The notes under the pieces were generated by a model. That model worked only from the letters and a program-made list of their open reading frames with translations. It made no database searches and had not been told where the DNA came from. Shown here piece after piece: positions 3,604-58,141 of a stretch of DNA of 64,000 bases. A program made the translations under genes and the position numbers. How positions within the stretch are numbered: the stretch's first letter is position 1; each line of letters starts with the position of its first letter. Origin of the DNA: Minisyncoccota bacterium (lineage in GTDB: Bacteria > Patescibacteriota > JACMRA01). The stretch lies in NCBI GenBank assembly GCA_014376695.1, contig JACMRA010000002.1:7323-71322 (forward strand). Reading direction: 5' to 3'.

Positions 3604-3810
3604 AGACTAGGAATATATTATCTACGGGATTTTGGCAAGTAGTTTTTAATTTCAGATAAAATAATTTTTGGAAATATATTGAATCACGATTGTTATCAGT
3701 GATTTTGACAAAGTACAGCTTATAGGGCATAATTATTGAGACTGGACAATCCAAGTAGCCTCCAACTACAATCGGCCTACTAAATACAAAACACAAAATA
3801 ATACAAAAAT

Positions 3811-5418: not shown

Positions 5419-5427
5419 GTTTGAAGC

Positions 5428-5901
5428 TTACTCCAATATCTCCACAACTTTAACAGTGAATTTATTATTTTTGATACGGATAACTACTGAATCTCCAGCT
5501 TTTTTGCCGAGGATACCTTGGGCAAGCGGTGAATCGTTAGCTATTCTGGCTGGAATATCTAGGGCATTAGCCTCTGAATTACCTGTAATATGCACGCTAA
5601 ATTCTTTTTTTTCGTCTGGATAGGCAATTTTGACAGTGCTTCCGATACGGATTGTCTTGCTAATTTCGGCGTTTTCTTGGATGATTTCGTAATCATTAAG
5701 TATTGATTCGATACGAACTTTTTCGGCGTTTAACCTTTGTTGTTCGACCAAAAGCACATCTCGGGCCGAGTTTTCTTTGAGATCTCCTGCGGACAAAGCC
5801 TCGGTCAAACCAGTGAGGACTTCAGGGATTCTGACGTTTACAATAGCTTCGTATTCTTTTTGTATGTCTACAAGTCCTTGGGTAGTAATGTAATTGGCCA
5901 T
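5428..5901 (-). CDS. greA: Transcription elongation factor GreA
   Basis: 157 aa. The N-terminal coiled coil carries GDLKENS (the GreA acidic tip region). The C-terminal FKBP-like domain shows ISNDSPLAQGILGKKAGDSV-type sequence (ANDSPLAQGILGKKAGDSVVI). Confidence 0.9.
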   Translation of the reverse strand: MANYITTQGLVDIQKEYEAIVNVRIPEVLTGLTEALSAGDLKENSARDVLLVEQQRLNAEKVRIESILNDYEIIQENAEISKTIRIGSTVKIAYPDEKKEFSVHITGNSEANALDIPARIANDSPLAQGILGKKAGDSVVIRIKNNKFTVKVVEILE

Positions 5902-6005
5902 ATTATTAGTCTTGTTTAAGTCTTATTAGTTGTCTTGATATATATCTTAATATAAGAATAGTTAAGCCAGCTTTTGTCAAGTTGAATTCCAGGTTTTGAG
6001 ACTTC

Positions 6006-6034
6006 TTGACAAAAAAGAGTTTGACCGTTCTAAT
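6006..6034 (+). promoter_or_regulatory. Sigma70-type promoter upstream of rplX, implying a leaderless or near-leaderless mRNA
   Basis: TTGACA (6006-6011), a 17-nt spacer, then TCTAAT (6029-6034). The ATG of rplX is at 6043, only 8 nt after the -10 element, and no SD is present. Confidence 0.4.
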
Positions 6035-6042
6035 TAGAACAG

Positions 6043-6438
6043 ATGTCTACAGCAAAAATTCAAACAGGCGATACCGTTCAAGTTATATCAGGCAATTACC
6101 GTGGCACGGTCGGAGTCGTAACTAAAGTTATCATAACAAAAGCACGCAATGGATTAACAATGAAGCGTGCTAGTGTAAGTACTGTACCCAAAATCGCAAA
6201 ATATCGAAAGAGCCAGAGCGTGCAAGGAACAACTTACCCAGGTCAAAAATTTGATATTGACCGAACAATAGACCTATCCAATCTTAATTTATTTACTGGA
6301 TCAACAATCTCTAAATCCATGATAGAATTAAAGGACGGCAAAAAAGTTCGCGTTTATAAAAAAACTTCTGAAACTGTCACAAAAGAAAAAGTCGCCAAGA
6401 TCAAGGTAGGCCCACAATTAGAAACAGATTCCAAATAA
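6043..6438 (+). CDS. rplX: 50S ribosomal protein L24 (extended)
   Basis: KOW motif IQTGDTVQVISGNYRGTVGVVTKV. Lies immediately upstream of rplE, as in spc operons. Confidence 0.85.
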   Translation: MSTAKIQTGDTVQVISGNYRGTVGVVTKVIITKARNGLTMKRASVSTVPKIAKYRKSQSVQGTTYPGQKFDIDRTIDLSNLNLFTGSTISKSMIELKDGKKVRVYKKTSETVTKEKVAKIKVGPQLETDSK

Positions 6439-6502
6439 CTAGATTAAGCAATCTTAGTTTATATTATACAAGTACCAATTAAACTCTTTTCATTTTTAAA
6501 AT

Positions 6503-7060
6503 ATGGCTAGCAATATCCCACCCGTCAAATTAGATACACAAGCTCTTTTTGATACAGCTTTTAATACTGTAGCTAAAACCAGCCCCAAAATAAACAAATT
6601 TTCACTCCCTTCTGTTGATTCTGTAGTAATCAATGTAGGGGTCGGAAAAAACGACAATAAACAAAAACAAGATATAGCAGATTATCTACAAAAACTCACT
6701 GCTCAAGTTCCAAAAAAAGTTTCCTCTAAAGTATCCATCGCCTCTTTTAAGGTTCGAAAAGGAGATACTGTTGGTTTAGTTGTTAGTCTTCGCGGTCAAC
6801 GGGCCAGAGATTTTCTTTTGCAATTAATCTATATCGCATTGCCTCGAACAAGAGATTTCAAAGGTGTCAAGGCAACTGCCTTCGATAAGGATTTTTCAAC
6901 CTATTCATTAGGTATTGATTCTTCGGCAATTTTCCCTGCGGTTGGTTTCGATACTTCCATTAATTTTGGGATGCAGATGAATATCAAATTCAAACACAAA
7001 ACTCCGCTTAACCCAAGCTACCTAACGGCCCTGAGCTTCCCTTACAAAAAAGTAGCATAA
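6503..7060 (+). CDS. rplE: 50S ribosomal protein L5
   Basis: VVINVGVGK..., KVRKGDTVGLVVSLRGQRARDFL and ALPRTRDFKGV are typical L5 blocks. Confidence 0.9.
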   Translation: MASNIPPVKLDTQALFDTAFNTVAKTSPKINKFSLPSVDSVVINVGVGKNDNKQKQDIADYLQKLTAQVPKKVSSKVSIASFKVRKGDTVGLVVSLRGQRARDFLLQLIYIALPRTRDFKGVKATAFDKDFSTYSLGIDSSAIFPAVGFDTSINFGMQMNIKFKHKTPLNPSYLTALSFPYKKVA

Positions 7061-7107
7061 TCATAAATTTAACCAACTAGAAAATAAGAATAATATAATT
7101 AAATAAT

Positions 7108-7293
7108 ATGGCTAGAAAAGCAATGATTGTAAAAGCGCTCAAGGAGCCAAAATTCAAAACAAGGACAGTTCGCCGATGTAAGGTCTGTGGTCGAAATCGC
7201 GGATATTTACGATACTTCGATATGTGCCGAATCTGTGTGCGAGAGCTAGCTATGAAAGGTGAGCTAAACGGCTTTTTCAAAAGCAGTAAATAA
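7108..7293 (+). CDS. rpsN: 30S ribosomal protein S14, zinc-type (type Z)
   Basis: 61 aa: MARKAMIVK...[33 protein letters not shown]. The CxxC...CxxC zinc knuckle is intact. Confidence 0.9.
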
Positions 7294-7335
7294 TAATTAA
7301 AAGATAATTTCAAACCAAGTAAATATAAAATACCT

Positions 7336-7707
7336 ATGTCAATGTTCGACCTAATGAGTGATTTCGTAGCCCGAGTCAACAACGCTGTAACAGCACAAAA
7401 ATCTACTGTGAAAGTACTAAAAAACAATTTAGTAACTCAAGTATGTAAAAAACTAGTTAAATTGAACTATTTTGAATCCTTCGCTGAAGGTGAAGACTAC
7501 GAGTTAGAAGTCGTTTTAACCAAAAATATTACTAAGCTTACCAGAATTTCCAAACCAGGAAAGCGGGTTTATACAGGTTTCGAAAAGTTCCCACGTGTAA
7601 TCGGCGGTAAAGGATGGAATATTATCACATCATCAAAAGGTGTTCTTACTAACTTCGAGGCTAAAGAGCAAAAAGTAGGAGGTGAATTACTTTTTCAAAT
7701 CATTTAA
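7336..7707 (+). CDS. rpsH: 30S ribosomal protein S8
   Basis: N-terminal MSDFVARVNNA (the S8 DxIxDMLTRIRNA-like block) and C-terminal GGELLFQI. Follows S14 in order. Confidence 0.9.
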   Translation: MSMFDLMSDFVARVNNAVTAQKSTVKVLKNNLVTQVCKKLVKLNYFESFAEGEDYELEVVLTKNITKLTRISKPGKRVYTGFEKFPRVIGGKGWNIITSSKGVLTNFEAKEQKVGGELLFQII

Positions 7708-7771
7708 TACTATCCAAAAACTCTTTCTGTCATCACCAGTGGCAGATTTTTGGTAAATATTTTCTTTTGTT

Positions 7772-8665
7772 ATGACTCATACAGTTCTACTTTTTTATAA
7801 ATTTGTTAATATCTCGAACCCACAACAAGTATTAAATTCTCAGCAGAATCTCTGCAAATCCTTAGGTCTCAAAGGTAGAGTTATTATATCTGGCGAGGGG
7901 ATTAACGGCACGCTAGAAGGCCTGAATTCCGATTGCGGCGAGTATATAAGACAGATGCACCAGATAGATGTTTTTAGGGATATAGCGTTCAAGCAGAGCG
8001 TAGGCAGCGGATCGTGCTTTCCAAGGTTATCAATTAAGGTTCGAGAGGAGATTGTCACGACCAAGCTACCTTATACAAAAGACCTTGGTCCTCATTGCGG
8101 CTTTACCGGGAAATATTTATCCTCTGAAGAATTAAATCAATGGTATGGCGATGGTCGCGAATTTTATATGGTTGATATGCGTAATGACTACGAGTACAAC
8201 ATTGGGCATTTTAGAGGTTCTATTTTGCTCAAAAATCTAAAAAACTTTAGGAATTTACCCGATATATTGCCTGAATTAGAACATCTCAAGGGTAAGACAA
8301 TAGTAACTTGCTGTACCGGCGGAGTCCGCTGCGAAAAAGCTTCTGCTTTCTTGATGTATAATTATTTCAAAGACGTTTATCAATTACAGGGCGGTATTGC
8401 AACCTATGTAGAGAAGTACCCCAATCGAGATTTTCTTGGTAAGCTATATGTCTTTGACGGGCGGCTTGCCCTCGGGATCGATACTGACAAACCAGATCAT
8501 ATTATTGTTGGCAAGTGCAGTATCTGCGACGTCCAATCCGAAAATATTACTGATTATTGGTATCTGAATAAGCGTCACCACGGTGTTGTTTGTAGTGATT
8601 GCGTTCTTCGGGACGATGTTAAACTAACTAAAGAAATAATTAACCCGGAACCAATTAAGTGTTAG
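7772..8665 (+). CDS. trhO: Rhodanese-domain tRNA uridine(34) hydroxylase (TrhO/YceA, UPF0176)
   Basis: N-terminal LLFYKFVNI...GRVIISGEGINGTLEG. Rhodanese active-site loop CCTGGVRCEKASAFL. C-terminal Cys-rich tail. Confidence 0.8.
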   Translation: MTHTVLLFYKFVNISNPQQVLNSQQNLCKSLGLKGRVIISGEGINGTLEGLNSDCGEYIRQMHQIDVFRDIAFKQSVGSGSCFPRLSIKVREEIVTTKLPYTKDLGPHCGFTGKYLSSEELNQWYGDGREFYMVDMRNDYEYNIGHFRGSILLKNLKNFRNLPDILPELEHLKGKTIVTCCTGGVRCEKASAFLMYNYFKDVYQLQGGIATYVEKYPNRDFLGKLYVFDGRLALGIDTDKPDHIIVGKCSICDVQSENITDYWYLNKRHHGVVCSDCVLRDDVKLTKEIINPEPIKC

Positions 8666-9954
8666 ATTGGTAGTCTCTTGACGATGGCTTTTGTATTTGG
8701 TTGTAGGAGATAATAATTAGGAAAGCCAGATTTTCGGCGATCATATTCTTTTTGGTTACTGCTTTTGACCTTGGCAATCTCGCCTTCAAATAATGCATTT
8801 TGAACCTCAATATCTTTGAACAGCCTGTCCATCTGAACTCGTCGCCCGATAAATTCATCATAATCTAGGTCAAATTGCTCTTGCCAGACTGTCATTAATA
8901 CCGATCCTTTAGCAAGGCGTCCGTTGGTACCGAGAGTTGGTTTATTGTTGCATTCTTGAATTGACTTGGCTATTGAGGTTGACAATTTAGAATTGCTCGG
9001 TATATCTAAGCTAGTGAAGTATTTAATGGTCTCGGTCTTTTTTGGTTCGAGGCTTGCGCAAAATTGGTTAATTGTTTCGACATTAAAACCTTTGTTGACT
9101 AAGGCTTGGCAGCTTTGGATGTAGTTATTTCTGTATTGAATTAGGGAAGGAATATAAGAAACAGATTCAAGGTTTTGTTTTAGGATTTTTAGGGAATCCT
9201 CGTATGAAAGCACAATGTTATTCAAATTATTATCAAAATATTTATAAGTTAGGATATTAGATTCGTTGGTTATTTGCGAGTAATTGCCATTTACAACAAG
9301 CTTTTTGCTCAAGTAGTCGTCCATCGAAGATTGTTGCGAGCTGTCATCGGTAATAATAGGCTGCATGCTGCAGCTACTGGCAACATTTGTGTTAATGTAT
9401 TTGTCCAAACTCTGGGTATAAGTGAGTAGGTTTGTCACTGTATTGCTGTGGTCAATTTTAATTTTATTGATTTGATTTTGATTTGATAAATGTATAATCT
9501 CTAGCCCAGCTGGCTGAATTGATATCAGATACCATCCTAATCCGCTTATAACTAGGCCAAAAGCTAGTATCCAAACGAATCTATTTTTCCAAGATTTTTT
9601 TCGCAGAACTGGAGCGGGGGGTAGGATCTCGGCTTTATCTTTTTTGGAACGGCCGAAACTGAACCAAGAATTTTTAGCTTTTTCAAGGTCTTGATTTTCG
9701 GATTTTGAGGAAGTTTGGCTTGAATTTGAGTAAAAATTATCATCTGGATTCTTTTCTGAACTCGGTGATTGATAATTATTGTAAATGGCTTGAATTTTGG
9801 CAAAGTCATTATCGTCAGTAGGCCGGTTGGGTTGCTCGCTCATAAAATTGTTAACGATATTGGCAGCCTGATGTTTGTTTTGGTCGTTTTTGGATATGTC
9901 GTTAGAGCTCTTGTTGTAGTCGTCTAGTAAAGGATTCGGTTTATAATTAGACAT
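8662..9954 (-). CDS. Hypothetical single-pass membrane protein
   Basis: 430-aa ORF. The N-terminal region is low-complexity and polar, followed by one TM (FVWILAFGLVISGLGWYLISI). No recognisable family. Confidence 0.45.
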   Translation of the reverse strand: MSNYKPNPLLDDYNKSSNDISKNDQNKHQAANIVNNFMSEQPNRPTDDNDFAKIQAIYNNYQSPSSEKNPDDNFYSNSSQTSSKSENQDLEKAKNSWFSFGRSKKDKAEILPPAPVLRKKSWKNRFVWILAFGLVISGLGWYLISIQPAGLEIIHLSNQNQINKIKIDHSNTVTNLLTYTQSLDKYINTNVASSCSMQPIITDDSSQQSSMDDYLSKKLVVNGNYSQITNESNILTYKYFDNNLNNIVLSYEDSLKILKQNLESVSYIPSLIQYRNNYIQSCQALVNKGFNVETINQFCASLEPKKTETIKYFTSLDIPSNSKLSTSIAKSIQECNNKPTLGTNGRLAKGSVLMTVWQEQFDLDYDEFIGRRVQMDRLFKDIEVQNALFEGEIAKVKSSNQKEYDRRKSGFPNYYLLQPNTKAIVKRLPI

Positions 9955-10032
9955 ATTTTGTGTTGGCTAATAGTTCTATTATACTGTTAACTAAGTTTTG
10001 CATAATATCCAGTATTTCGTCAAATTAAGAAT

Positions 10033-12348
10033 TTATCTATCTCTCGGGACTTTGAGATAATCTAGAGAAAAACTCATCATTTCTTTGAATCCAGGCATAA
10101 GCGTTGTGTCCGCAAAGTTGGTAACGACACCTGGACGGGGTTCAGAGATTTTTATAACTATCATTACTTCAGCGTTGGTGGTAGGGCCGTAACCGATTAA
10201 TGTATGGTCGAATAAGCCTTTTTCGGTGTTGCAGGTGTAATCGCAGGGTTTATCGTCGTGTTGCCTCGTGATTTGAGCGGTACCAGTTTTGGCCGCGACG
10301 CTGTATCCAGGAATGCTATTACGGCCGACTTGCTGACCTAAATACCCTTCGTCAATTACAGCTTGCATATATCCTGTAGTTAGTTTTGCACTTTTTTCGG
10401 TAAATATGGATTTTGGTTCTGGTCGATTTAGAATTGAGTCACTCCCGTGGCCATCGTCAATTTTGCCATTTTGATCTACTATCTTTTCGACGAGAAACGG
10501 CTCTACCATCTGACCTTTGTTCGCTAAGGCTGTGTAGGCCCGAGCAAGTTGAATGGTACTAATAGCAATCCCTTGACCAAACCCGTGCTGAGCAAAGCAA
10601 TATTGACAGTCCATATTCTTTTCGAGGCTACTTAAATTACCATTACCGCCCCCTGCAAAGGTGGCCTCAGTTGGCTTGTTAAACTCGAACTTGTTGACAA
10701 AATAGTCTCGGAGCTTGACATTGCCCAAGCTGTCTGTAATATCAGATATCATAGTATTAATAGAATCTCTAATTGTGAGCTTGAGGTCGTTTTGCCTGCC
10801 TGAATAAGAAATATTTTGGGAATTACTAATTCGTAGCTCCGCACCGTTTAATTCTTTGTAAATTTTGCCATTTTTATCATAATCGGCTTTTTTCCAGTCT
10901 TCTGGTACTCCGATACGCTGGCCTTGGCTCCCTGTGGTACCTTTTTCATATTCGGTTAGTGCAGCGGCCACCGTAAGCGGTTTCATAACAGACCCGACTT
11001 CATAATCTTCGCTAGTTGCGACATTTCGATAGGTGGATACCTCGCCTTGACCGTATAAATTTGGATCGAAGCTTGGAGCTGAGGCAAGGGCTAAGATTTT
11101 TCCGGTCTTGGGGTTCATTACTACCATAGAGGCGTTGCGAGGTTTGCCGTTGGCGTTGGTATTTTCTTTTATGGCTTTTGCTAGTATTTCCTCGGCTTTT
11201 TGTTGCATTGTCATATCTAGAGTTAGGTAGATATCGGAGCCATTTTGGGCTGGGAGAGAATCTTCGTTATTGAGCTTGTTGCCAAGAATAACCGTACGCC
11301 CGTTTCGCCCGGCCAGTGTTGAGCAGTATTTTTGCTCCAGCCCGTAATAGCCAATAGCATAATCGAGGCTTGAGGCGCCGCTTCGGTCGTTATCTTCGAT
11401 CATTTGCCTGCACTCAGTTTTGACGCCCTCTTGGCGGCTAACATTGTATTTGGGGATGTAACCAAGAGTTGCACCGAGTAGGTCGCCATAGGGATAGGAA
11501 CGAGTTATATTTTCGCGAACTCCGAGCCATGTAAAATATGCCATTTTGTTGTCGCTTTGATCTATGAGATAGTTTGCCACTTTTTTTTGAAATTCAGTAA
11601 TACCTTTGACCAAAATTACGTACCGCGATGGGTTTTCTTTTGTGGTTTCTAGATTGATTAAGTCCAACACGGTATTATATGGAAGGTTGAGATTGCCGGC
11701 CAGCCCCGAGGCCAAATCTTCAGTTTTGAGTTTATTTTTGTTAATTATAGACTTGAGAGCTAGAGGGTCGATTGAGAGATTGGCTGTATTTTGAGTGCTA
11801 GTTAACGAAATCTTTGGCTGGTTTCTAGCGAAATCTTGAATGTATATTTGGCCTTTTTTTTGATTTTCGATAATGCTTCGCCTGACAACCCCGCTTCCAG
11901 CGTCAATTGTATTATTGGCAGACACATAATAATTAAAAATTTGGAGATTGGCCAAATGCAATATAAGTAATCCAAAGATCACAAAAGTCCCAAATTTAAC
12001 TACGTTTATTCGGCCCCTTGTAGCTATCCACGCGTAAATTGCCGACACCAATATAGAAATTTGCATCTTGAGGCTCTTGCCAAAAATGGAGAATATTCCG
12101 CTTGGAGCCGTCTTTTTGGTAGTTGTCCTAGTTTTTGCTTGCTTGCTTTTTGGTTTTTCAAATTCCCGATAAATTGACTTAGTGCTAGGTGAGGTAAAGT
12201 TACTATTTTTGGTACTTTTTGTTGGTCGGGTATTAGAATCAGTTAATTGAGCAAAGCTTTCGTGAATTTTTGTGGTCAATTGTTTCAAATTAGACTGTTC
12301 ACGGGATATAGTTTTTAGGTTATTTATGTTTAATTTTATTTTTGCCAT
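10033..12348 (-). CDS. Class B penicillin-binding protein (PBP2/FtsI-type transpeptidase)
   Basis: N-terminal TM, SxxK (GSVMKP), SxN (SQN) and KTG (AAKTGTAQ) transpeptidase motifs in the canonical order. Confidence 0.85.
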   Translation of the reverse strand: MAKIKLNINNLKTISREQSNLKQLTTKIHESFAQLTDSNTRPTKSTKNSNFTSPSTKSIYREFEKPKSKQAKTRTTTKKTAPSGIFSIFGKSLKMQISILVSAIYAWIATRGRINVVKFGTFVIFGLLILHLANLQIFNYYVSANNTIDAGSGVVRRSIIENQKKGQIYIQDFARNQPKISLTSTQNTANLSIDPLALKSIINKNKLKTEDLASGLAGNLNLPYNTVLDLINLETTKENPSRYVILVKGITEFQKKVANYLIDQSDNKMAYFTWLGVRENITRSYPYGDLLGATLGYIPKYNVSRQEGVKTECRQMIEDNDRSGASSLDYAIGYYGLEQKYCSTLAGRNGRTVILGNKLNNEDSLPAQNGSDIYLTLDMTMQQKAEEILAKAIKENTNANGKPRNASMVVMNPKTGKILALASAPSFDPNLYGQGEVSTYRNVATSEDYEVGSVMKPLTVAAALTEYEKGTTGSQGQRIGVPEDWKKADYDKNGKIYKELNGAELRISNSQNISYSGRQNDLKLTIRDSINTMISDITDSLGNVKLRDYFVNKFEFNKPTEATFAGGGNGNLSSLEKNMDCQYCFAQHGFGQGIAISTIQLARAYTALANKGQMVEPFLVEKIVDQNGKIDDGHGSDSILNRPEPKSIFTEKSAKLTTGYMQAVIDEGYLGQQVGRNSIPGYSVAAKTGTAQITRQHDDKPCDYTCNTEKGLFDHTLIGYGPTTNAEVMIVIKISEPRPGVVTNFADTTLMPGFKEMMSFSLDYLKVPRDR

Positions 12349-12363
12349 CGCGGACTTGATTTT

Positions 12364-14550
12364 TTATTTGTCTTTGAATCTATAAAAATATTCGTCTTTT
12401 TTGTCCAGTCGGCAATCAATTATTGCGTATTTACGCCCAAGATATTGCATAAATGTAGACTTTTTGAGAAGTTTTTCTGGCCACTCAACGAAGGCAATAT
12501 TATCAACATTGGTTAACTCTTCTTCAATCCAGCTAAGGTCGTTATCTTCAATTGGGTTAAGCCGGTGTAAATCTAGATGGGTGATTTCTTGATAATTTTG
12601 GCTACTTGCCATTCCAGCTGCTTTGAGCGGGTATTTTTGCATCAGGGCAAAAGTTGGCGAGCTGGCCTCTATTTCAGTACCCAGAATTTTACATAGTTCG
12701 GTTACCAAATGAGTTTTTCCGCTTCCCATTTCGCCTCGAAGGAAGAAGAGGGAGATTTCTTTATTGGTGATTAAGGTGCTTGCTATGTCGAGAAGCTTGT
12801 CGAGATAAATCTTTTTATTCATCGGGACAGATAAGGTTTTTGGCTTATCTTTTTTGCCGCCGCCGCCCATAAAGCTTTGGGGTTGCACACCTTCGAGGAA
12901 ATCAACTAATTTGTAGCTGTCGGGATGCTGGCGGACTTTATTTAGGGCTGCTTCCTCAATTTGTCGTACACGTTCTCGAGTTACGTGAAACACATAGCCA
13001 ATTTCTTCAAGCGTGTGTCCGATATTAGTACCGTCGAGCCCAAATCTTAAGAGGACAACTTTTTTCTCCCTTGGTTCTAAGCAGTCTTCAATAATCTTCA
13101 TAATGTGGTGATGGAGAAGTTTATTGGATGCTTCGTCAATAGGTTGAATTGTTGATTCGTCCTGAATCATATCTACCATTTGAGTGTCAGTTTCGTCGCT
13201 AAAACCGACCATAGTATCAATCGAGATAGTGTCTTGGCTAATTCGTTTGAAGTAATAAATTGTATCTACATCGACTTCTAGGCGTTCGGCCATTTCATCG
13301 TCAGTTGGATCTCGGCCTAATTCATCGACCAGCATTTTTCTCTCTTTTCTAAATTTGTTTAGTTTTTCTTCAACGTGAACAGGTAGTCTAACGGGCTTAC
13401 TTTGGTCAGCCAAGGCACGTTTTATGCTTTGATCTATCCAGTAGTTGGCATAAGTACTAAATTTATATCCACGTCGCCAATCAAATTTTTCTACGGCACG
13501 GAGTAATCCCATATTCCCTTCTTGAATCAAGTCCAAAAAGGCTAGGTTTCGTCCCATATATCGCTTTGCTAAGTGGACAACCAATCGCAGATTAGCGTTA
13601 TTTAACTCTCGTTTGGCAGCTTGGTCGCCTTGCTCGATGCGTTTAGCTAACTCAACTTCCTGATCTTTGGTCAAGAGCGGATATCGATAAATATCTCGAA
13701 TGTAGTTCTGGGCAGCGTCGTCAGATAATTCACTAGAATCGAAGTCAAATCCGTTATTGTCAGTGAGTTTTTCGGCCAGCTCTATTTCGAGTGAGGAGTT
13801 CCCAGCCTCGTCATTGATACTGTTCCAAAGGTTGTCTAAAGTGTTGACATAATTAATTGGCGATCCGGAGTCCTCACATAAATCGATAATATCTTCGACC
13901 AGTTCAATGTTATTTTCTGGAAAAGGAATAGCGTAAAGCACCTCGTCTTCGGTAACGAAACCTCGAGAAATCCCCTGTTTGATCATATCAACAATTTTTT
14001 GCTGAAAATTCAAATCTTCCATCTGGAAGTCAGGATAGAGGGAAGCATCGTTATTAATGAATTTTTTTAGGGTTTTGTTTTTGTTTTTACTTTCTCTAAT
14101 TTTGGCCTTTTTTTTCATTTTGACTTTAACTCCGTCATCTCTAGTTAAATATCGGCGACTGCCTTTTTCCTCGATGTTTTCGTTATCGAGGGCTTTTAGC
14201 CTATTCATCTCAGCTGCCGAAACCAGGTTAAGTCCAAGAATACCTTTGCGAGTAACTATTTCTTCTGAGTTGGTATTTTTTTTGTTGTCGAGATCCAAAA
14301 AATCATCCCCTTTACCTTTTCCGCCGTCTTTTTTGCCAAGCTTTAGTTTATCACCAGAATCCGAGTCCTCTTTTTTTGGAGGCTTAGTGTTCATAATCTT
14401 AGTGATTTTTGGGGCGCGGACTTTTGCGGTTTTAGCAGATCCTATCGTCAATCTTTTACGGTCCGATGACGATCGTTTTTGGATTTGAGCACCTTCTTCT
14501 ACTTCTCCAATATTGTGTTTGAGTGTTTCTGCGATGGTCTTCCTTGGCAT
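12364..14550 (-). CDS. rpoD: RNA polymerase sigma-70 factor RpoD fused in frame to tRNA t6A ATPase TsaE (YjeE)
   Basis: Sigma regions 1.2-4.2 are present ([86 protein letters not shown]). [11 protein letters not shown] linker follows. The last 152 aa are TsaE-like ([37 protein letters not shown]). There is no stop between the two parts. Confidence 0.85.
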
Positions 14551-14889
14551 ATTTGGTAGTTAAAATAATTATAAAAATTTGTAAAAATATGTTACTATAT
14601 TAAAAAACTTAATTGAAATAACTAAAAATTATAATTTATTTATGGAGTTTCTTGATTTTATTTGTTTCGACTTGAAGGTTGAGACTTATTTGACTAAAAT
14701 TGTATTGCCCGATAGATTATGATATAATATGATTGTATTCTAATAATATCGAGAGTATATAACAATTAATAGTTTTGTACTATTTTTTAAAACAGATAGC
14801 CCAGAATTAGCTTTTGCAATGTATCAAATCAAATAAAAAAGTATTAATCAAAAAACGTCAAGCCAAATTAATTTTTAAAAAACAATTTT

Positions 14890-15636
14890 ATGCTGATAAT
14901 CGTCGAGTCTCCCGCAAAAGCCAAAACAATATCTCAAATTCTCTCAGGTTTCAAAGAGTTTCAGGGGTCCTATGTACGCGCCTCTAAAGGACATATTAGA
15001 GTAATCAGCGATACAAATAAAACCGTTGACGGCAAAAAACTCGAAATTAGCGGAATAGATATTGATAATAATTTTAACCCGATATATGACATTGACGAGT
15101 CTAAAAGAGATGTCATTTTAGAACTAAAAAAATTAGCCAAAAATTCTGACGTTATCTTGTTTGCAACCGATGAAGATCGAGAAGGTGAAGCTATTAGCTG
15201 GCATTTGTCAGAAATTCTAGGTATTAAAGATAAGTCGCAAGTCAAGAGGATGGTATTTCACGAAATTACCAAAAACGCCATTCTCAAAGCCATTAAGGAA
15301 CCACGAGACTTAGATCTAAATTTGGTTGCGGCCCAAAAAGCTCGACAAGTCCTCGATAAGTTAGTCGGGTACAAATTGTCGCCAATACTTTGGAAAACCC
15401 TCGGCAATTACAGTCTTAGTGCAGGCCGGGTTCAATCACCAGCGCTTCGGCTGATCTGTGGACGCGAAGGAGAGATTAATATATTTGTACCTCAAGAATA
15501 TTGGGAAATACGCGGGAAATTTGTCCCCTTTAGTTCTGGGATCAGTATTAATAAGCCGAACAGCCAGAGAACTACGTCGACAGACTTTGAAAAGCTGATT
15601 CAGGCTTTTGACAGCCAGCGGCTACTCCCAGTATAG
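14890..15636 (+). CDS. topA: DNA topoisomerase I, N-terminal TOPRIM fragment only (truncated)
   Basis: MLIIVESPAKAKTISQIL, FATDEDREGEAISWHL and SAGRVQSPALRLICGREGEINIFVPQEYWEI match TopA residues about 1-210. The ORF stops at 248 aa, before the catalytic Tyr domain. A convergent gene overlaps its 3' end. Confidence 0.8.
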   Translation: MLIIVESPAKAKTISQILSGFKEFQGSYVRASKGHIRVISDTNKTVDGKKLEISGIDIDNNFNPIYDIDESKRDVILELKKLAKNSDVILFATDEDREGEAISWHLSEILGIKDKSQVKRMVFHEITKNAILKAIKEPRDLDLNLVAAQKARQVLDKLVGYKLSPILWKTLGNYSLSAGRVQSPALRLICGREGEINIFVPQEYWEIRGKFVPFSSGISINKPNSQRTTSTDFEKLIQAFDSQRLLPV

Positions 15637-16362
15637 TCCACCAATCTCGCTGATTATTTTGTCTAATTCTTTTAATTGTTCAGGGTTTTTACTGCTGGCA
15701 GTTACCCGAAACCATCCCTGTCCTTCAGGAGAGTTAATACCGGCGTTTGGTTGGAGTTTGGTTTTTGTAAGTGCGGTATAAAGTTCTGCGCCGCAGGAAT
15801 CAGCTTGGGCGTAATCTTGCTTCTCGCCTGGACTTGATTTGCTTAGATCTGCTGACTTGATAATATCATTGTACTTTTGGCTGTCTTTGAGATGGATACT
15901 TGAGCTTGGAAAGTAGATATAATCAGTTCGCCCAATTGGAAGAACGCGAGTAACTTTGTCGCTAACTTTGACGGTATTGGTATTGCAGGTGATATTGGTT
16001 AATCCGCTGACACTAGGAACTTCAAGCGTAATAACGGCCTTAGTTTCGGCTTTTGATAATGAAAATTGTTTAGTTGAAATACTTCCCACTTGCCAATCAG
16101 TTGGATAAGCTAACTGAAAGTTAGGAAAATCGCCGTAGCTATAAGTGGTTTTTTTAATCTCGGACTTAACGCTATTTTGGTTAGTAGCGCTACTTGGAGT
16201 CATATTGGTTTTTTTGGATATGTTCTTGATTAGCTCTGGGTTAAGACTTATAAAGGCGATACTAATGACTAAGATTAATATTAATCCGACAATTGGAATA
16301 ATCAGTTTTTTGAGTTTTTTGTTAAATGTTAGTTCGGATGTCTTTTTGTTTGGTTGAGTCAT
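15622..16362 (-). CDS. Hypothetical membrane-anchored extracytoplasmic protein
   Basis: 246-aa ORF with one N-terminal TM (LIIPIVGLILILVISIAFISL). No family recognised. Confidence 0.45.
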   Translation of the reverse strand: MTQPNKKTSELTFNKKLKKLIIPIVGLILILVISIAFISLNPELIKNISKKTNMTPSSATNQNSVKSEIKKTTYSYGDFPNFQLAYPTDWQVGSISTKQFSLSKAETKAVITLEVPSVSGLTNITCNTNTVKVSDKVTRVLPIGRTDYIYFPSSSIHLKDSQKYNDIIKSADLSKSSPGEKQDYAQADSCGAELYTALTKTKLQPNAGINSPEGQGWFRVTASSKNPEQLKELDKIISEIGGLYWE

Positions 16363-16460
16363 AGCTTGTTTTAATCACGATTTATTTGCTAGTTTTTATT
16401 GTTATGATTTTTATATTTATATATGTTATTTTTTTAGTCAAGAAATTTTTTGAATTAATT

Positions 16461-17384
16461 TTATTTTTGGAATAGCGAGGCTTCAAGATTACTGGCATCT
16501 CCTGTTTTGTTATTGAATGAGGCCATGGTTATCGCAAGCCTTGCTCGAACGGCCGTCATAGATTGTTTGATCTGCGTACCGAACTGCCCTTGCAGTTTTT
16601 TTAACATCTGGGTAATGGGATTTGGCTGAGTCGGATCCTCGGTCAAGGTCAATGGGTATCTACCGTCGCTTTGAGTAATCTCCAATTTGTCTAAATCAGG
16701 GATATTAGCATTAATTTCGGGTTTGAGTTGAATTTGGTCGACTAATTTGGGTAATGGAGTTGACACACTGGCCACCGCGGTGATTGGAACAAACTTGGGT
16801 TCAAAAATTTCGAATGGTGGGACAAAAAACTCGCTACTGTCTTCGAGTTGAGGAATAGATATATCGGGTAGGGCTTGGCTAATTCGCTGATTTAGACCGC
16901 TTTGAAAAATATCATCTTGGTTGATTGGAGGTAGGAAGCTTGGAAACTCTTCGACTGGGGAGTCGTCAGAATCATCGACATTTAATGTAGGGGCTGAAAC
17001 TATGGGGAGCGGAACTTGGTCTTGGAACTCAGGAGGCGGGGATAAATTTGGAGATGCGATTTGTGGGGGATTTTTTTTGGCAGTGGCTTCAAGGAATAAG
17101 CTCTCCCAATCAACCTGGTCTTCTACGGGTGCCTCAATTGGGCTAGGGGGAACTGGCGTGGCGGTCGAAACGGGACTTGGTTGAGTGGTATTGCCAAAAA
17201 AGTCATCCTCAGGTAAAGCCTCGAGGCTTGTAAATGGCTGTAATATCGGCTCAATGGGAAGGAGGGGCTTTTGAGCAGAAGAAACTCGAAGAGCTTTTAA
17301 ACGAGCCATCGCAGGGCTAACGGTTGGAAGTGAAGCATCTTGATCAACTTGATCATCCGATAGGGTTGAATTAGGATTGGACAC
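16461..17384 (-). CDS. Hypothetical Pro/Asp/Glu-rich, probably disordered protein (GTG start)
   Basis: 307-aa ORF rich in P, D, E and Q. It opens on GTG, and an ATG alternative lies 25 codons in. No family recognised. Confidence 0.4.
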   Translation of the reverse strand: MSNPNSTLSDDQVDQDASLPTVSPAMARLKALRVSSAQKPLLPIEPILQPFTSLEALPEDDFFGNTTQPSPVSTATPVPPSPIEAPVEDQVDWESLFLEATAKKNPPQIASPNLSPPPEFQDQVPLPIVSAPTLNVDDSDDSPVEEFPSFLPPINQDDIFQSGLNQRISQALPDISIPQLEDSSEFFVPPFEIFEPKFVPITAVASVSTPLPKLVDQIQLKPEINANIPDLDKLEITQSDGRYPLTLTEDPTQPNPITQMLKKLQGQFGTQIKQSMTAVRARLAITMASFNNKTGDASNLEASLFQK

Positions 17385-19510: not shown

Positions 19511-19864
19511 ATGTTCAAAATTTTATGTCATTTAATCGCTAACATTGCTGTAATTTACATTTTAGCAGGTATTTTTGGGAACTTCATTTTGGGAGACGTG
19601 GTTCAAGTAGGCATTTTTATAGTCGTATTATCTCTACTGAATTGGCTTGTCGTACCTCTTGTCAGACTTATTTCATTTCCGGTAACATTTTTGACCTTTG
19701 GGCTATTTAATATTGTAATAACTTTGCTTGCCGTGCTTACTGCCCTTAATCTGACTAAGGGGGTCTTAATCTATGAGACTGGCATTGCTTATTTTATACT
19801 TTTGATAATTTTGACGCTTGCCCTTTCGCTTAGCAATACTTTGATTAGTAATTTTGTTAAGTAG
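19511..19864 (+). CDS. Four-TM membrane protein, phage-holin-4 superfamily-like (PF04020/YvlD-like)
   Basis: 117 aa. The pattern LSLLNWLVVPLVRLISFPVTFLTFGLFNIVITLL resembles the YvlD/PF04020 LGLVNAIIRPILKLLSLPITILTLGLF core. Confidence 0.6.
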   Translation: MFKILCHLIANIAVIYILAGIFGNFILGDVVQVGIFIVVLSLLNWLVVPLVRLISFPVTFLTFGLFNIVITLLAVLTALNLTKGVLIYETGIAYFILLIILTLALSLSNTLISNFVK

Positions 19865-19868
19865 CTAT

Positions 19869-21362
19869 ATGATTGACCTATCTGATGAAAACGACCTGAA
19901 CACACAACGATCTCTGTTTGTGACGGGCGACGACGGTCAAAGCATCTATGGATTTAGAGGCAGTACGGTCGATCTTATCTTGAACTTCGAAGAATTTTAT
20001 CCAAAAAGCCGTGAAATTATTCTTAATCAAAACTATCGCTCCACGAAGGCAATTTTGGACTTAGCAGAAAAAATCCTCTCTCTCAACCCGAGGCAAAAAT
20101 TCAAAGAATTATTTACAGATAACCCAGACACAAATTTGGATGTCAATTACTATATTGCCCGAAACCATCAAGACGAAGGGCGTTACATTGTACGGCATAT
20201 GTATAATTATTTTGTCCAAAAAGATACCTCTCGCGTCTCCACAATAAACACTGATTTAGGCAAGTCTAATCAGGTGAGGATAGAATCATTCGATGATGAA
20301 TATGTGCGTGAGCAAGCCCAAATCAATAACCGACCAAAATCGGGCATATCCAATATGTTTGATACCTATTTAGAGACCTCCACGACTTCGTTTTCTACTG
20401 GAAATCTCTGGCAAAGTAGCGATAGATTTAATCACTATAATCCTAATAGTTGGAATATCCCAACTGTCGATTGGGAAAAATACACCGGTCTTAATAGTGT
20501 GGCTGTTCTCTATCGAACGCATGCCCAGTCACAGGCATTAGAGGCCGTTTTTAATAGTAATCAATTGCCATACCGGTTAGTTTCAGGGACTAGATTTTTG
20601 GATAGAAAAGAGGTTAAAGACGTAATTTCCATTCTTCGATTTGCTTTTAATAGTCAGGACAAACTGGCCATAGGGCGGTTCCTTCCTTTGATTTTGGATG
20701 GAGTGGGGCCAAAAACTCTCGAAAAAATTATCGCTTTTATGGAGGATAGTAACTATCCCTTGGCACCAAAATATCAAGACCTAGTGACCAAAACATTGGG
20801 ATCTATCAGTCAGGCCTGGTTATCAGATTTTCCATTAATTGATTTTTGTAAGTCGTTGATAGAGAGTTTGGGATATCTTGCCCACCTCAAAAAGAATTAC
20901 CCAGTCAAAGAAGAGTACGATTCAAGGCTCGAAAATATACAAGAATTGTATTCGCTAATGCTTCCATTCGACACCGAGGAGTCAGCTGGCGAACCCCTGT
21001 ACACAAAATTAGGACTATTTCTTGAGCGCGTAAGCCTAATGTCTAATATGGACAACAAGCAGGACGATAACACCCCAAAAATCAACCTTATGACACTCCA
21101 CCAGAGCAAGGGGCTAGAATTTGACATAGTATTTTTAGTTGGTATTGAGGATGGTCTATTACCTCACCAAAATAGCCTGTACGAGCCTAATGGATTGGAG
21201 GAGGAAGTTAGACTGGCTTATGTAGGGGTTACTAGGGCCAAAAAACAATTACATTTAATATCGGCGGAGAGTAGGGTTTTGTTTGGGCAGATTAAAGCAA
21301 TGCCAGTTAGCCGTATATTTAGGCCGTTTCTCGATCGGTACAGCAAGCGCGTAATAGATTAG
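19869..21362 (+). CDS. UvrD/PcrA-family helicase, C-terminal part only (begins at motif II/III; Walker A domain absent)
   Basis: Starts MIDLSDENDLNTQ..LFVTGDDGQSIYGFRGS (degenerate motif II plus motif III). Continues with NYRSTKAILD (motif IV), YRTHAQSQALE, TLHQSKGLEFDIVFL (motif V/VI region) and LAYVGVTRAKKQLHL. An upstream in-frame stop and the preceding membrane-protein gene leave no room for domain 1A. Confidence 0.8.
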   Translation: MIDLSDENDLNTQRSLFVTGDDGQSIYGFRGSTVDLILNFEEFYPKSREIILNQNYRSTKAILDLAEKILSLNPRQKFKELFTDNPDTNLDVNYYIARNHQDEGRYIVRHMYNYFVQKDTSRVSTINTDLGKSNQVRIESFDDEYVREQAQINNRPKSGISNMFDTYLETSTTSFSTGNLWQSSDRFNHYNPNSWNIPTVDWEKYTGLNSVAVLYRTHAQSQALEAVFNSNQLPYRLVSGTRFLDRKEVKDVISILRFAFNSQDKLAIGRFLPLILDGVGPKTLEKIIAFMEDSNYPLAPKYQDLVTKTLGSISQAWLSDFPLIDFCKSLIESLGYLAHLKKNYPVKEEYDSRLENIQELYSLMLPFDTEESAGEPLYTKLGLFLERVSLMSNMDNKQDDNTPKINLMTLHQSKGLEFDIVFLVGIEDGLLPHQNSLYEPNGLEEEVRLAYVGVTRAKKQLHLISAESRVLFGQIKAMPVSRIFRPFLDRYSKRVID

Positions 21363-22044: not shown

Positions 22045-22425
22045 ATGATTCGTATCGCAGGTGTTGTCATTAACACCAATAAACAAGCAAGATTTGCACT
22101 TACACCTATCAAAGGAGTCGGGAAATCGAATGTCAAAAAAATCTTAGAGGTGATGAATATTGATCCCACCAGTAAGCTCGGAGAATTGTCTGATGAAATT
22201 ATAGTAAAACTCCGTAATCACATTGAGGATACCTATATTTTGGAAGCCGATCTAAGACGACAAGTTCAAGCAAATATCAAGCGATTGATTGAGATCAGTG
22301 CGCATCGAGGGCTTCGACATAAGGCAGGTCTTCCAACTCGAGGACAAAGAACTAAGACTAATAGTCGAACTGTTCGAGGTAACAAGAGAACTTCACTCGG
22401 AAGCGGCCGTATCAAACCAAAATAG
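22045..22425 (+). CDS. rpsM: 30S ribosomal protein S13
   Basis: MIRIAGVVINTNKQARFALTPIKGVGKSN, YRGLRH-like (HRGLRHKAGLPTRGQRTKTN). Confidence 0.9.
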   Translation: MIRIAGVVINTNKQARFALTPIKGVGKSNVKKILEVMNIDPTSKLGELSDEIIVKLRNHIEDTYILEADLRRQVQANIKRLIEISAHRGLRHKAGLPTRGQRTKTNSRTVRGNKRTSLGSGRIKPK

Positions 22426-48977: not shown

Positions 48978-49024
48978 AAAGCAAAAAAAATACAGGTCGA
49001 ACCTGTAAACAAAAAAATTAATAT

Positions 49025-54532: not shown

Positions 54533-54549
54533 ATTTATTTTTTGAGATT

Positions 54550-58134: not shown

Positions 58135-58141
58135 AATCTAT

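What the first reader, a model, noticed from the sequence alone, without database searches (positions are those of the whole stretch)
12364..14550. In-frame fusion of the housekeeping sigma factor RpoD with the t6A-pathway ATPase TsaE
A complete sigma-70 (regions 1.2 to 4.2, ending ..[20 protein letters not shown]) runs on without a stop. It passes through a Gly/Lys linker ([22 protein letters not shown]) into a full TsaE/YjeE module ([36 protein letters not shown]). I know of no described sigma-TsaE fusion. It would physically couple promoter recognition to an ATPase of the tRNA threonylcarbamoyl-adenosine machinery. An internal ATG (12822-12820, MNKKIYL) could also allow separate TsaE translation.
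Basis: partly seen in the sequence, partly recalled or inferred. Interest (0 to 1): 0.65.

Follow-up and report, generated by a model that had tools for sequence, protein, structure and literature searches.

The report
Housekeeping sigma factor fused to TsaE
One gene in an uncultivated, small-genome bacterial lineage (Patescibacteria) encodes the main promoter-recognition subunit of RNA polymerase joined by a short flexible linker to TsaE, an ATPase of the tRNA t6A-modification machinery; the fusion is real, conserved across the lineage and under selection, but what the coupling achieves is unknown.

Summary
Window 12364-14550 (-) is one 728-aa ORF: a basic N-terminal extension, a complete group-1-type sigma-70 (regions 1.2, 2, 3, 4), a 21-residue disordered linker and a complete TsaE module.

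It is not an assembly artefact. The 120 best-matching protein clusters (52-96% identity, several data sources) and 21 of 21 evaluable species-representative genomes have the same architecture.

The TsaE module looks functional:
- The P-loop, SPT motif and switch I Trp are intact.
- The predicted fold matches only solved TsaE structures.
- It is under strong purifying selection.
- The linker varies in sequence but is nearly fixed in length.
- TsaD, the catalytic partner, lies on the same contig as the fusion in four relatives.

I found no description of a sigma-TsaE fusion in the literature. A related lineage independently fused adenylate kinase to the same sigma C-terminus.

Most likely this is a bifunctional protein with a flexibly tethered TsaE. 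A regulatory role for the tether is possible but untested. TsaB, TsaC and other sigma genes could not be checked genome-wide.

The parts
12364..14550 (-). Whole sigma-70-TsaE fusion ORF (728 aa plus TAA stop)
14568..14595 (-). Promoter-like site GTAACA-16 nt-TATAAT (10 of 12 matches), ending about 18 nt before the ATG, within a 340-nt AT-rich intergenic region; no Shine-Dalgarno sequence
   Evidence: consensus match only
14035..14550 (-). Residues 1-172: basic, mostly disordered N-terminal extension with family-invariant motifs ([14 protein letters not shown], [32 protein letters not shown]); no Pfam match
13813..14034 (-). Residues 173-246: helical domain, weak match to sigma region 1.1 (E = 5e-4, below the Pfam cut-off)
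13396..13728 (-). Residues 275-385: sigma regions 1.2 and 2 (-10 recognition and core binding)
13144..13380 (-). Residues 391-469: sigma region 3 and the 3.2 linker
12886..13143 (-). Residues 470-555: sigma region 4 ([17 protein letters not shown], -35 recognition), ending ..[10 protein letters not shown]
12823..12885 (-). Residues 556-576: linker [22 protein letters not shown]. Predicted disordered (pLDDT < 50 at residues 562-573), variable in sequence but nearly constant in length across the family; Pro557 nearly invariant
12367..12822 (-). Residues 577-728: complete TsaE (YjeE) P-loop ATPase module
12712..12735 (-). Walker A P-loop G606-EMGSGK-T613 (G606, G609, G611, K612 and T613 invariant in 62 homologs)
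12562..12579 (-). Switch II motif H658-L-D-L-H662-R663. The canonical Tyr (EcTsaE Tyr82) is His here, as in 95 of 108 family clusters; none has Tyr
12481..12486 (-). E689-W690: the switch I Trp that contacts the ATP gamma-phosphate in solved TsaE; invariant in the family
12820..12822 (-).
10033..12348 (-). ftsI/PBP2-type transpeptidase gene starting 15 nt after the fusion's stop codon, same strand, probably co-transcribed. This neighbour is conserved only in close relatives

Best explanation
This is a genuine single-polypeptide fusion, fixed in one Patescibacteria/CPR lineage that uses the standard genetic code. NCBI labels its MAGs inconsistently (Gracilibacteria, Peregrinibacteria, Paceibacterota, Patescibacteria group). 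The N-terminal ~555 residues are the lineage's primary-type sigma-70, which binds RNA polymerase core and reads -35/-10 promoters. The C-terminal 152 residues are a catalytically competent TsaE ATPase, hanging from the end of sigma region 4 on a disordered tether of about 12-20 residues. Shown: the fusion is real, conserved and under purifying selection; the TsaE fold and ATP-site motifs are intact; TsaD is encoded in the same genomes. Inferred: the TsaE module still does TsaE's normal job. In that job it binds the TsaB-TsaD interface in an ATP-dependent way and hydrolyses ATP to reset TsaD for the next round of t6A37 synthesis, and here it would do so either as part of free sigma or while sigma sits on RNA polymerase. 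Also inferred: the fusion arose by rearrangement in a lineage with heavily scrambled, split and fused genes, and it persists because it ties the expression of two constitutively needed proteins together. A direct effect on transcription is not required by this explanation.
For: Fusion real and widespread:
- The 120 best-matching clusters all carry Sigma70 plus TsaE at 52-96% identity and about 100% coverage.
- 21 of 21 evaluable species representatives are fused, including divergent ones at 33-42% TsaE identity.
- In 1.84 billion 50%-identity representatives, only one full-length cluster and two fragments span both modules.

Selection:
- Window versus L090 is 80% identical in DNA, 50% identical at third codon positions and 95.6% identical in protein.
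- In the TsaE module 142 of 152 residues are identical, while only 49% of those codons are identical.
- The spacing from the end of sigma to the P-loop is 46-53 residues, and exactly 51 in 77 of 108 clusters. Total protein length varies from 703 to 780 aa because of N-terminal indels.

TsaE identity:
- Pfam scores 71 bits against a cut-off of 26.6.
- The family profile hits only TsaE chains in the PDB.
- The AlphaFold model has pLDDT 88, and its five best Foldseek hits are all TsaE (probability 1.00, TM 0.53-0.62), more than 1000-fold better in E-value than the next fold.
- Walker A, SPT, H-x-D, EW and helix alpha-3 (D671, W674, E677, E678), which docks on TsaB-TsaD in the solved complex, are conserved.

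Partner present:
- An intact-looking TsaD lies on the same contig as the fusion in L019, CBCZCW010000001.1, L093 and the 62,989-bp contig shared by L013 and L092. Three further contigs match by length.
- The lineage's TsaD keeps the Lys that the TsaE switch II residue stacks on.

Tether:
- Linker pLDDT is below 50 and full-length pTM is 0.30, with each domain at 80-90.
- TmTsaE carrying an N-terminal tag was used to obtain the TsaBDE complex, so N-terminal additions are tolerated.
Against: - TsaB and TsaC were not found in the 558 kb of family sequence held, and no whole genome could be searched, so a complete t6A pathway is not demonstrated.
- The switch II Tyr, whose Ala mutant lowers nucleotide affinity about 7-fold in E. 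coli TsaE, is His throughout the family. The TsaD interface may therefore differ.
- The conserved linker length hints at a geometric constraint that two fully independent modules would not need.
- A second, independent fusion of a P-loop ATP-binding enzyme (adenylate kinase) to the same sigma C-terminus could point to a shared functional theme and not a neutral accident.
- There is no protein-level evidence that the full-length product accumulates.
Confidence: 0.6

Rival explanations
1. The TsaE module has been co-opted as a regulatory or recruiting domain acting on the sigma factor it is attached to. Sitting next to sigma region 4 and the -35 element, its ATP/ADP state or its binding to TsaB-TsaD would modulate holoenzyme formation or promoter use. 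Alternatively it would bring the t6A transferase to RNA polymerase. Either way, transcription initiation would be tied to energy state or tRNA-modification capacity.
For: Linker length is tightly conserved while its sequence is free. A related lineage independently fused another small ATP-binding P-loop enzyme, adenylate kinase, to the same sigma C-terminus. The switch II Tyr is replaced by His family-wide. The known precedent is ECF sigma factors, whose fused C-terminal extensions regulate them in cis (PMC7671368, listed; the mechanism is from my own knowledge).
Against: AlphaFold predicts no fixed contact between sigma region 4 and TsaE (pTM 0.30, disordered linker). Every motif needed for canonical TsaE chemistry and TsaB-TsaD docking is retained, and TsaD is present, so canonical function is the simpler reading. 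The adenylate kinase fusion is young and narrow, and its closest relatives are unfused, which fits a fusion-prone genome equally well.
Confidence: 0.17
2. One ORF but two proteins: TsaE is made separately, by internal initiation, by frameshifting or slippage in the linker, or by proteolytic cleavage of the exposed linker.
For: The window has an in-frame ATG at the start of the TsaE module (Met577) and an A6 run in the linker. The linker is disordered and so accessible to proteases. The genuine start codon also lacks a Shine-Dalgarno sequence, so its absence before Met577 is not decisive.
Against: The codon at the Met577 position can act as a start in only 6 of 24 family genes, and Met occupies it in 9 of 108 clusters. 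A-runs in the linker range from 2 to 7 and are not conserved. No promoter-like site lies just upstream of the TsaE module on the coding strand. If separate products were what mattered, a stop codon would be expected to return in some lineages, yet none of the 21 evaluable genomes has one. Cleavage cannot be excluded by computation.
Confidence: 0.12
3. Assembly or sequencing artefact: a missed stop codon or indel has joined adjacent rpoD and tsaE genes.
For: None beyond the prior. One relative (L021) has a frameshift, but it lies inside sigma and not at the junction.
Against: The same junction is found in more than 120 clusters from four data sources with different assemblers. The junction is under purifying selection. 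Non-fused Patescibacteria show no rpoD-tsaE adjacency that could have been mis-joined.
Confidence: 0.01

Closest known systems
Stand-alone TsaE/YjeE/YdiB (PF02367), ATPase subunit of the bacterial TsaB-TsaD-TsaE threonylcarbamoyl-transfer complex (PDB 1HTW, 5NP9, 6N9A, 6S84)
   Same: Same fold. Same P-loop, SPT(F/Y), H-x-D-L-x-R and E-W motifs. The helix alpha-3 that docks on TsaB-TsaD is conserved. TsaD is encoded in the same genomes.
   Different: It is covalently attached through its N-terminus to a sigma factor. Known TsaE proteins are free and about 140-180 aa. The switch II Tyr is His. There is an insertion of about 10 residues between the SPTF..Y and H-x-D motifs. The gene is not next to tsaB, unlike the non-fused Patescibacteria locus L039.
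Group 1 (primary) sigma-70, RpoD/SigA
   Same: Regions 1.2, 2, 3 and 4 are all present. The DNA-recognition stretches are RpoD-like, and the best NCBIfam matches are RpoD equivalogs.
   Different: It carries a 152-aa enzyme after region 4 and a ~170-aa basic N-terminal extension. It scores below the RpoD equivalog cut-offs (353 against 555 bits). Its sigma part is only about 47% identical to the nearest unfused Gracilibacteria-class RpoD.
Sigma-adenylate kinase fusion of 'Candidatus Abawacabacteria'
   Same: A complete primary-type sigma with a small P-loop ATP-binding enzyme fused directly after region 4, in the same CPR class.
   Different: The enzyme is different (ADK, PF00406). The clade is much narrower and younger (11 clusters at 86% identity or more), and relatives at 72-79% identity are unfused. 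The origin is independent.
ECF sigma factors with fused C-terminal extensions (for example groups ECF41 and ECF42)
   Same: A sigma-70-family protein with an extra domain after region 4. In ECFs that domain regulates sigma activity in cis (PMC7671368; own knowledge).
   Different: ECFs have only regions 2 and 4 and are alternative sigmas, and their extensions are not P-loop enzymes. Here regions 1.2 and 3 are present, so this is not an ECF.
Fusions within t6A machineries: archaeal Kae1-Bud32, Mycoplasma TsaC-HemK
   Same: t6A components do occur as gene fusions (PMC4615747).
   Different: Those fusions join t6A subunits to each other or to a translation-related methyltransferase. None involves TsaE or a transcription factor.

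Membership tests
TsaE (PF02367 / COG0802) | Profile match above the curated threshold | tested here: met
   Pfam TsaE 71.4 bits against a cut-off of 26.6, residues 588-696. The family profile hits 7 PDB TsaE sequences at E = 5e-15 to 5e-8.
TsaE (PF02367 / COG0802) | TsaE fold | tested here: met
   AlphaFold model pLDDT 88, pTM 0.83. Foldseek top 5 hits are all TsaE: 6NAK_D, 5NP9, 6N9A_E, 1HTW_A, 6S84_E, probability 1.00, TM 0.53-0.62.
TsaE (PF02367 / COG0802) | Walker A P-loop GxxGxGKT and the switch I Trp (E-W) | tested here: met
   G606, G609, G611, K612, T613, E689 and W690 are invariant in 62 homologs. Their roles are taken from PMC6009658.
TsaE (PF02367 / COG0802) | Switch II Tyr in the H-x-D-x-Y-R motif (EcTsaE Tyr82) | tested here: not met
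   The residue is His in 95, Gln in 4 and Asp in 2 of 108 clusters, and never Tyr. H658, D660 and R663 of the motif are conserved.
TsaE (PF02367 / COG0802) | TsaD partner encoded in the same genome | tested here: met
   TsaD and the fusion lie on the same contig in four relatives. Not seen in the 64-kb window itself.
TsaE (PF02367 / COG0802) | TsaB partner and the TC-AMP synthase TsaC/Sua5 encoded in the same genome | tested here: inconclusive
   None found with E. coli probes or a 14-sequence TsaB profile in 558 kb of family loci. These loci cover only a small part of each genome.
TsaE (PF02367 / COG0802) | ATPase stimulated by TsaB-TsaD; required for multi-turnover t6A synthesis | not testable with these tools
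   Needs biochemistry.
Group 1 sigma-70 (RpoD) | Regions 1.2, 2, 3 and 4 all present | tested here: met
   All four Pfam domains score above their cut-offs.
Group 1 sigma-70 (RpoD) | Region 1.1 | tested here: inconclusive
   Sigma70_r1_1 scores 20.4 bits against a cut-off of 22.5. A confident helical domain is predicted at residues 173-246.
Group 1 sigma-70 (RpoD) | NCBIfam RpoD equivalog score | tested here: not met
   Best hits NF004208 at 353 bits (cut-off 555) and NF006666 at 333 bits (cut-off 572). This is a divergent CPR sequence.
Group 1 sigma-70 (RpoD) | Acts as the essential housekeeping sigma of the genome | not testable with these tools
   No whole genome was accessible. None of the 109 unfused RpoD clusters lies on a contig whose length matches a fusion contig listed, which is only weak evidence.
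ECF sigma with C-terminal extension | Only regions 2 and 4 (no 1.2, no 3) | tested here: not met
   Regions 1.2 and 3 are present.
MzaA (MZA anti-phage system sigma-70 family protein, NF041931) | Equivalog score | tested here: not met
   290 bits against a cut-off of 800, and only the sigma core matches.

The most novel reading that the evidence does not exclude
The TsaE ATPase tethered to sigma region 4 is a working part of the transcription machinery. Its nucleotide state, or its ATP-dependent engagement with TsaB-TsaD, would tune holoenzyme formation or promoter use, or bring the t6A transferase to RNA polymerase. Transcription initiation would then be directly wired to tRNA-modification capacity or cellular energy state. 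The independent sigma-adenylate kinase fusion in Abawacabacteria would be a second instance of a primary sigma that senses nucleotides.
Probability: 0.15. Interest if true: 0.85.

Novelty: new variant of a known kind. Interest (0 to 1): 0.58.

Why it matters
Primary sigma factors are among the most conserved bacterial proteins, and to my knowledge none has been described with an enzyme fused after region 4. In cis regulatory extensions are known only for ECF sigmas.

A clade-wide, selected fusion to the t6A reset ATPase is therefore an unexpected architecture. A second, independent fusion to adenylate kinase in a related lineage adds to that.

If the two halves act independently, the case shows how far gene fusion and fission can reshape core information-processing genes in small CPR genomes. 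It also shows that sigma region 4 tolerates a 17-kDa cargo next to the -35 element.

If they are coupled, it would be a new direct link between transcription initiation and tRNA modification or energy status.

There is also a practical point. Automatic pipelines name this protein either 'sigma-70' or 'TsaE'. One of the two essential functions is therefore missed in metabolic reconstructions of these genomes.

Tried and rejected
- **Alternative genetic code (UGA as Gly or Trp).** One relative is labelled Gracilibacteria, so I checked. The window has many ORFs of 500-977 aa open under table 11, and the fusion ORF contains none of the three stop codons. The conclusion therefore does not depend on the code. 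TGA ends only 1 of 30 long ORFs.
- **Conserved internal start at Met577.** Rejected.
- **Programmed frameshift or transcriptional slippage at the linker A6 run.** The run is not conserved (2-7 A) and is not a canonical X_XXY_YYZ heptamer in frame.
- **P0142 as a distant sigma-TsaE fusion.** It is a sigma with a duplicated region 4 and no TsaE.
- **Origin from an ancestral rpoD-tsaE adjacency.** Three non-fused Patescibacteria have stand-alone tsaE with no sigma gene within 10 kb, and one has the usual tsaE-tsaB pair. No support.
- **Compensatory change in TsaD for the switch II Tyr-to-His change.** The partner Lys (TmTsaD Lys166) is unchanged in the lineage's TsaD.
- **TsaB, TsaC or a second tsaE in the window and family loci.** Searched with Pfam, tblastn, phmmer and a custom TsaB profile. 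None found, which is uninformative because coverage is small.
- **Nei-Gojobori dN/dS.** Synonymous sites are saturated even for the closest pair, so only raw proportions are reported.
- **Looking up the window's own protein in the contig index.** Not on record, so I used the 96%-identical P0001 instead.
- **MzaA anti-phage sigma.** Score far below the cut-off.
Full report
**1.

Window 12364-14550 on the minus strand is a single ORF of 728 codons ending in TAA. It contains no TAA, TAG or TGA in frame, so it is open under the standard code and under the UGA-recoding codes used by some CPR bacteria.

Pfam places the following domains:

| Domain | Residues | Note |
|---|---|---|
| Sigma-70 region 1.1 | 183-229 | weak, below cut-off |
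| Sigma-70 region 1.2 | 281-311 | |
| Sigma-70 region 2 | 318-384 | |
| Sigma-70 region 3 | 395-472 | |
| Sigma-70 region 4 | 489-541 | |
| TsaE (PF02367) | 588-696 | 71.4 bits, cut-off 26.6 |

NCBIfam's best matches for the N-terminal part are RpoD equivalogs, though below their cut-offs. The internal ATG at 12822-12820 encodes Met577.

**2. It is not an artefact and not unique to this assembly**

- A full-length search returned 120 best clusters at 52-96% identity and about 100% coverage. They are 703-780 aa long (two are N-terminally truncated), come from NCBI, JGI, ENA and Logan, and every one carries both the sigma domains and PF02367.
- Two independent ENA assemblies of a 96%-identical relative show the same gene with the same neighbours as window 3,124-17,384.
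- A scan of GTDB species-representative genomes with a TsaE-module profile found 22 Patescibacteria-type MAGs with this kind of TsaE (33-91% identity over its whole length). After those, the results drop sharply to ordinary stand-alone TsaE of other phyla.
- In 20 of the 22 the reading frame through the TsaE match is 714-812 codons long and also matches sigma.
- One of the remaining two is cut off by its contig end. The other is a complete long-read chromosome with a single frameshift inside sigma region 2.4/3.0, while region 3, region 4, the linker and TsaE remain in one frame. That is most simply an indel error.
- An exhaustive search of 1.84 billion 50%-identity representatives with region 4 + linker + TsaE found only one full-length cluster and two fragments spanning both modules. 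The one other candidate, P0142, is a sigma with a duplicated region 4.

So the architecture is confined to one lineage, but within that lineage it appears universal.

**3. Which lineage**

NCBI labels for these MAGs are inconsistent: Gracilibacteria, Peregrinibacteria, SR1, Paceibacterota, 'Patescibacteria group', and some evident mis-binnings. The window is AT-rich (about 39% GC) and densely coding under table 11. I could not obtain a GTDB placement.

**4. Anatomy**

An alignment of 62 family members and AlphaFold models give the following picture.

| Residues | Feature |
|---|---|
| 1-172 | Basic, largely disordered extension with family-invariant motifs and no Pfam match |
| 173-246 | Helical, region-1.1-like domain |
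| 275-555 | Confident sigma domains 2, 3 and 4, ending ..[10 protein letters not shown], which corresponds to the normal C-terminus of RpoD |
| 556-576 | Linker; pLDDT below 50 at 562-573 in the full-length model and at 556-569 in the module-only model |
| 577-728 | Confident alpha/beta TsaE module (pLDDT 88, pTM 0.83 when modelled alone) |

The full-length pTM of 0.30, with each domain at pLDDT 80-90, means no fixed orientation between sigma region 4 and TsaE is predicted.

The linker sequence is free, but its length is not. From the end of DFLEG to the P-loop Gly there are 46-53 residues, and exactly 51 in 77 of 108 clusters. Total protein length, by contrast, varies by about 80 residues because of N-terminal indels.

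**5. The TsaE module looks functional**

- The family profile hits only TsaE chains in the PDB, and the five best fold matches are all TsaE.
- Walker A (G606-x2-G609-x-G611-K612-T613), S631-P632-T, Y640, H658-x-D660 and E689-W690 are invariant.
- According to the TsaBDE structure paper, the Trp contacts the ATP gamma-phosphate and helix alpha-3 docks on the TsaB-TsaD helical bundle (PMC6009658). The corresponding helix here (residues 669-680; D671, W674, E677, E678) is among the best-conserved parts of the module.
- One canonical residue differs. The switch II Tyr (EcTsaE Tyr82), which stacks on TsaD Lys166 and whose Ala mutant binds nucleotide about 7-fold less well, is His in 95 of 108 clusters and never Tyr.
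- There is also a lineage-specific insertion of about 10 residues.
- Selection is strong. Between the window and L090 the gene is 80% identical in DNA, 50% identical at third codon positions and 95.6% identical in protein. Within the TsaE module, 142 of 152 residues are identical while only 49% of those codons are.

**6. The t6A partner is there**

The window itself encodes no TsaB, TsaD, TsaC or second TsaE. An intact-looking TsaD does lie a few kilobases from the fusion in relatives. It has the ETSCDET start, the NH-x-x-x-H metal motif, GGVSAN, and the conserved FDK Lys that pairs with TsaE switch II.

- Direct cases are L019, CBCZCW010000001.1 and L093, plus the 62,989-bp contig shared by L013 and L092.
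- Three more TsaD homologs sit on contigs whose lengths equal those of fusion contigs.
- A loose neighbourhood recurs: fusion, PPIase, an alaS N-terminal fragment, TsaD, a pilin, MiaA, PyrG.
- TsaB and TsaC were not found in the 558 kb of family sequence I hold. That covers only a small, redundant fraction of each genome, so their presence is unresolved.

**7. Separate translation of TsaE is not supported**

- Met occupies the Met577 position in only 9 of 108 clusters. The others are Leu 43, Phe 18, Val 13, Ile 9, Tyr 8 and Trp 6.
- 64 of 108 clusters have no Met anywhere between sigma and the P-loop.
- In 24 family genes with DNA in hand, the codon is ATG in 5 and TTG in 1, and is not start-capable in the rest. 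No Shine-Dalgarno-like sequence precedes it, and A-runs in the linker (2-7 A) are not conserved.
- No promoter-like site lies just upstream of the module on the coding strand.
- Proteolytic cleavage of the exposed linker cannot be excluded by computation.

**8. How it most likely works**

Shown:
- It is one polypeptide.
- Both halves are conserved.
- TsaE keeps its fold and ATP site.
- TsaD is present in the same genomes.
- The tether is flexible.

Inferred, from the established TsaBDE mechanism (PMC6009658, PMC6614819): the TsaE module still binds the TsaB-TsaD interface with ATP and resets TsaD by hydrolysis, while the sigma part acts as the lineage's primary sigma.

The end of region 4 is solvent-exposed in holoenzyme structures (my own knowledge). 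TmTsaE bearing an N-terminal tag was used to obtain the TsaBDE complex. Neither function is therefore obviously blocked by the fusion. I put this bifunctional, flexibly tethered reading at about 0.6.

**9. The more interesting rival**

Using the nearest unfused sigma representatives as a guide, I found that the closest non-TsaE relative (P0143, 47% identical over 360 residues) is a complete primary sigma fused after region 4 to adenylate kinase.

- That fusion forms 11 clusters at 86% identity or more, labelled 'Candidatus Abawacabacteria' or 'Gracilibacteria'.
- Relatives at 72-79% identity have an ordinary RpoD of about 400 aa.
- Several other sigma representatives carry long unannotated C-terminal extensions.

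So within this CPR class, the primary sigma has acquired a small ATP-binding P-loop enzyme at the same position at least twice. Two readings fit. These genomes may simply be fusion-prone, since they also show many split genes (see the side observations). Alternatively, a nucleotide-responsive module next to region 4 may be useful. Together with the conserved linker length, this keeps a regulatory or recruiting role alive at roughly 0.15-0.2.

**10. Novelty**

Full-text searches for TsaE or YjeE with sigma or fusion terms, for t6A enzyme diversity, and for sigma C-terminal extensions found no description of this architecture.

- Two reviews of t6A enzyme diversity mention fusions such as Kae1-Bud32, TsaC-HemK and TobZ/HypF. 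None involves TsaE or a sigma factor.
- The proteins are in public databases, auto-named either 'sigma-70 family' or 'TsaE'.
- Both modules are well known, so I classify this as a new variant (a new domain architecture) of known kinds.

**11. Limits**

- No read-level data.
- No whole-genome access, so TsaB, TsaC and other sigma genes are unverified.
- No GTDB taxonomy.
- No inter-domain confidence (PAE) from the models.
- No experiment.

Noticed in passing
window 14890-15636 (+); L090 8985-9740; L091 2967-3722: topA is present only as a ~250-aa N-terminal piece (Toprim plus the first ~100 positions of the topoisomerase domain), followed by unrelated genes on the other strand. The same truncated ORF appears in two independent assemblies of a 96%-identical relative, so it is not a contig-end artefact.
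   Followed up: partly
window 19854-21362, 50820-52814, 54463-55029, 54997-55677, 60035-60928; L004 1650-2891, 4485-5228, 12537-12944; L019 6207-7127; L088 7523-8380; L092 4166-5080; L093 9068-9997: Many core genes occur as separate, scattered pieces across this lineage. Examples are an alaS N-terminal catalytic fragment (285-309 aa) next to tsaD in four relatives with a separate alaS tRNA_SAD piece in the window, ligA adenylation, Zn-finger and BRCT pieces as separate ORFs (two of them on one 808-kb contig), lepA without its GTPase domain, the C-terminal part of uvrD alone, and a partial uvrA. This looks like lineage-wide gene fission, reminiscent of Nanoarchaeum. A literature search found no description of it for these taxa.
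   Followed up: partly
P0143 and P0416-P0425 (not in the window): A complete RpoD fused C-terminally to adenylate kinase (627-634 aa) in 'Candidatus Abawacabacteria'/'Gracilibacteria' MAGs. It forms 11 clusters at 86% identity or more, and close relatives are unfused. Public records name it plain 'RpoD'.
   Followed up: partly
window 14035-14550 (-), residues 1-172 of the fusion: A strongly conserved, very basic N-terminal extension (invariant [14 protein letters not shown], [32 protein letters not shown]) with no Pfam match and mostly low pLDDT. It could be a nucleic-acid- or polymerase-binding addition specific to this sigma family.
   Followed up: no
window 6043-7707, 22045-22425, 27867-28289, 35839-36519: Ribosomal protein genes are dispersed instead of lying in the usual long operons: L24-L5-S8 here, and S13 and L11 alone elsewhere. 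L21 carries an extra helix-hairpin-helix domain (226 aa).
   Followed up: no
window 57694-59923 (-): A likely defence or mobile islet, made of a HepT-like/nucleotidyltransferase-substrate-binding protein next to an AIPR (abortive-infection-type) protein. It coincides with a GC drop to 0.305 at 58-60 kb.
   Followed up: no
whole window: TGA ends only 1 of 30 stop-to-stop ORFs of 250 aa or more (TAA 17, TAG 12), yet long ORFs are intact under table 11. TGA therefore seems to be avoided as a stop and not recoded. One release-factor gene (PCRF/RF-1 domains) lies at 30604-31665; I did not determine whether it is RF1 or RF2.
   Followed up: partly
L019 11050-13008; L088 1-615 / L089 13493-15622: The GTPase Der/EngA is fused to a HAD-type hydrolase domain (652-709 aa) in relatives, another unusual fusion of a core gene in this lineage.
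   Followed up: no
window 49025-49108 (-) and 47778-49094 (-): The only tRNA gene found in the window (tRNA-Leu, anticodon UAG) overlaps the annotated 5' end of the glycosyltransferase ORF. The ORF's true start is probably further downstream.
   Followed up: no
L090 5930-6478: A 182-aa protein with a faint Sigma70_r2 hit lies about 3.5 kb from the fusion in the 96%-identical relative. It may be a small ECF-like second sigma in these genomes.
   Followed up: no
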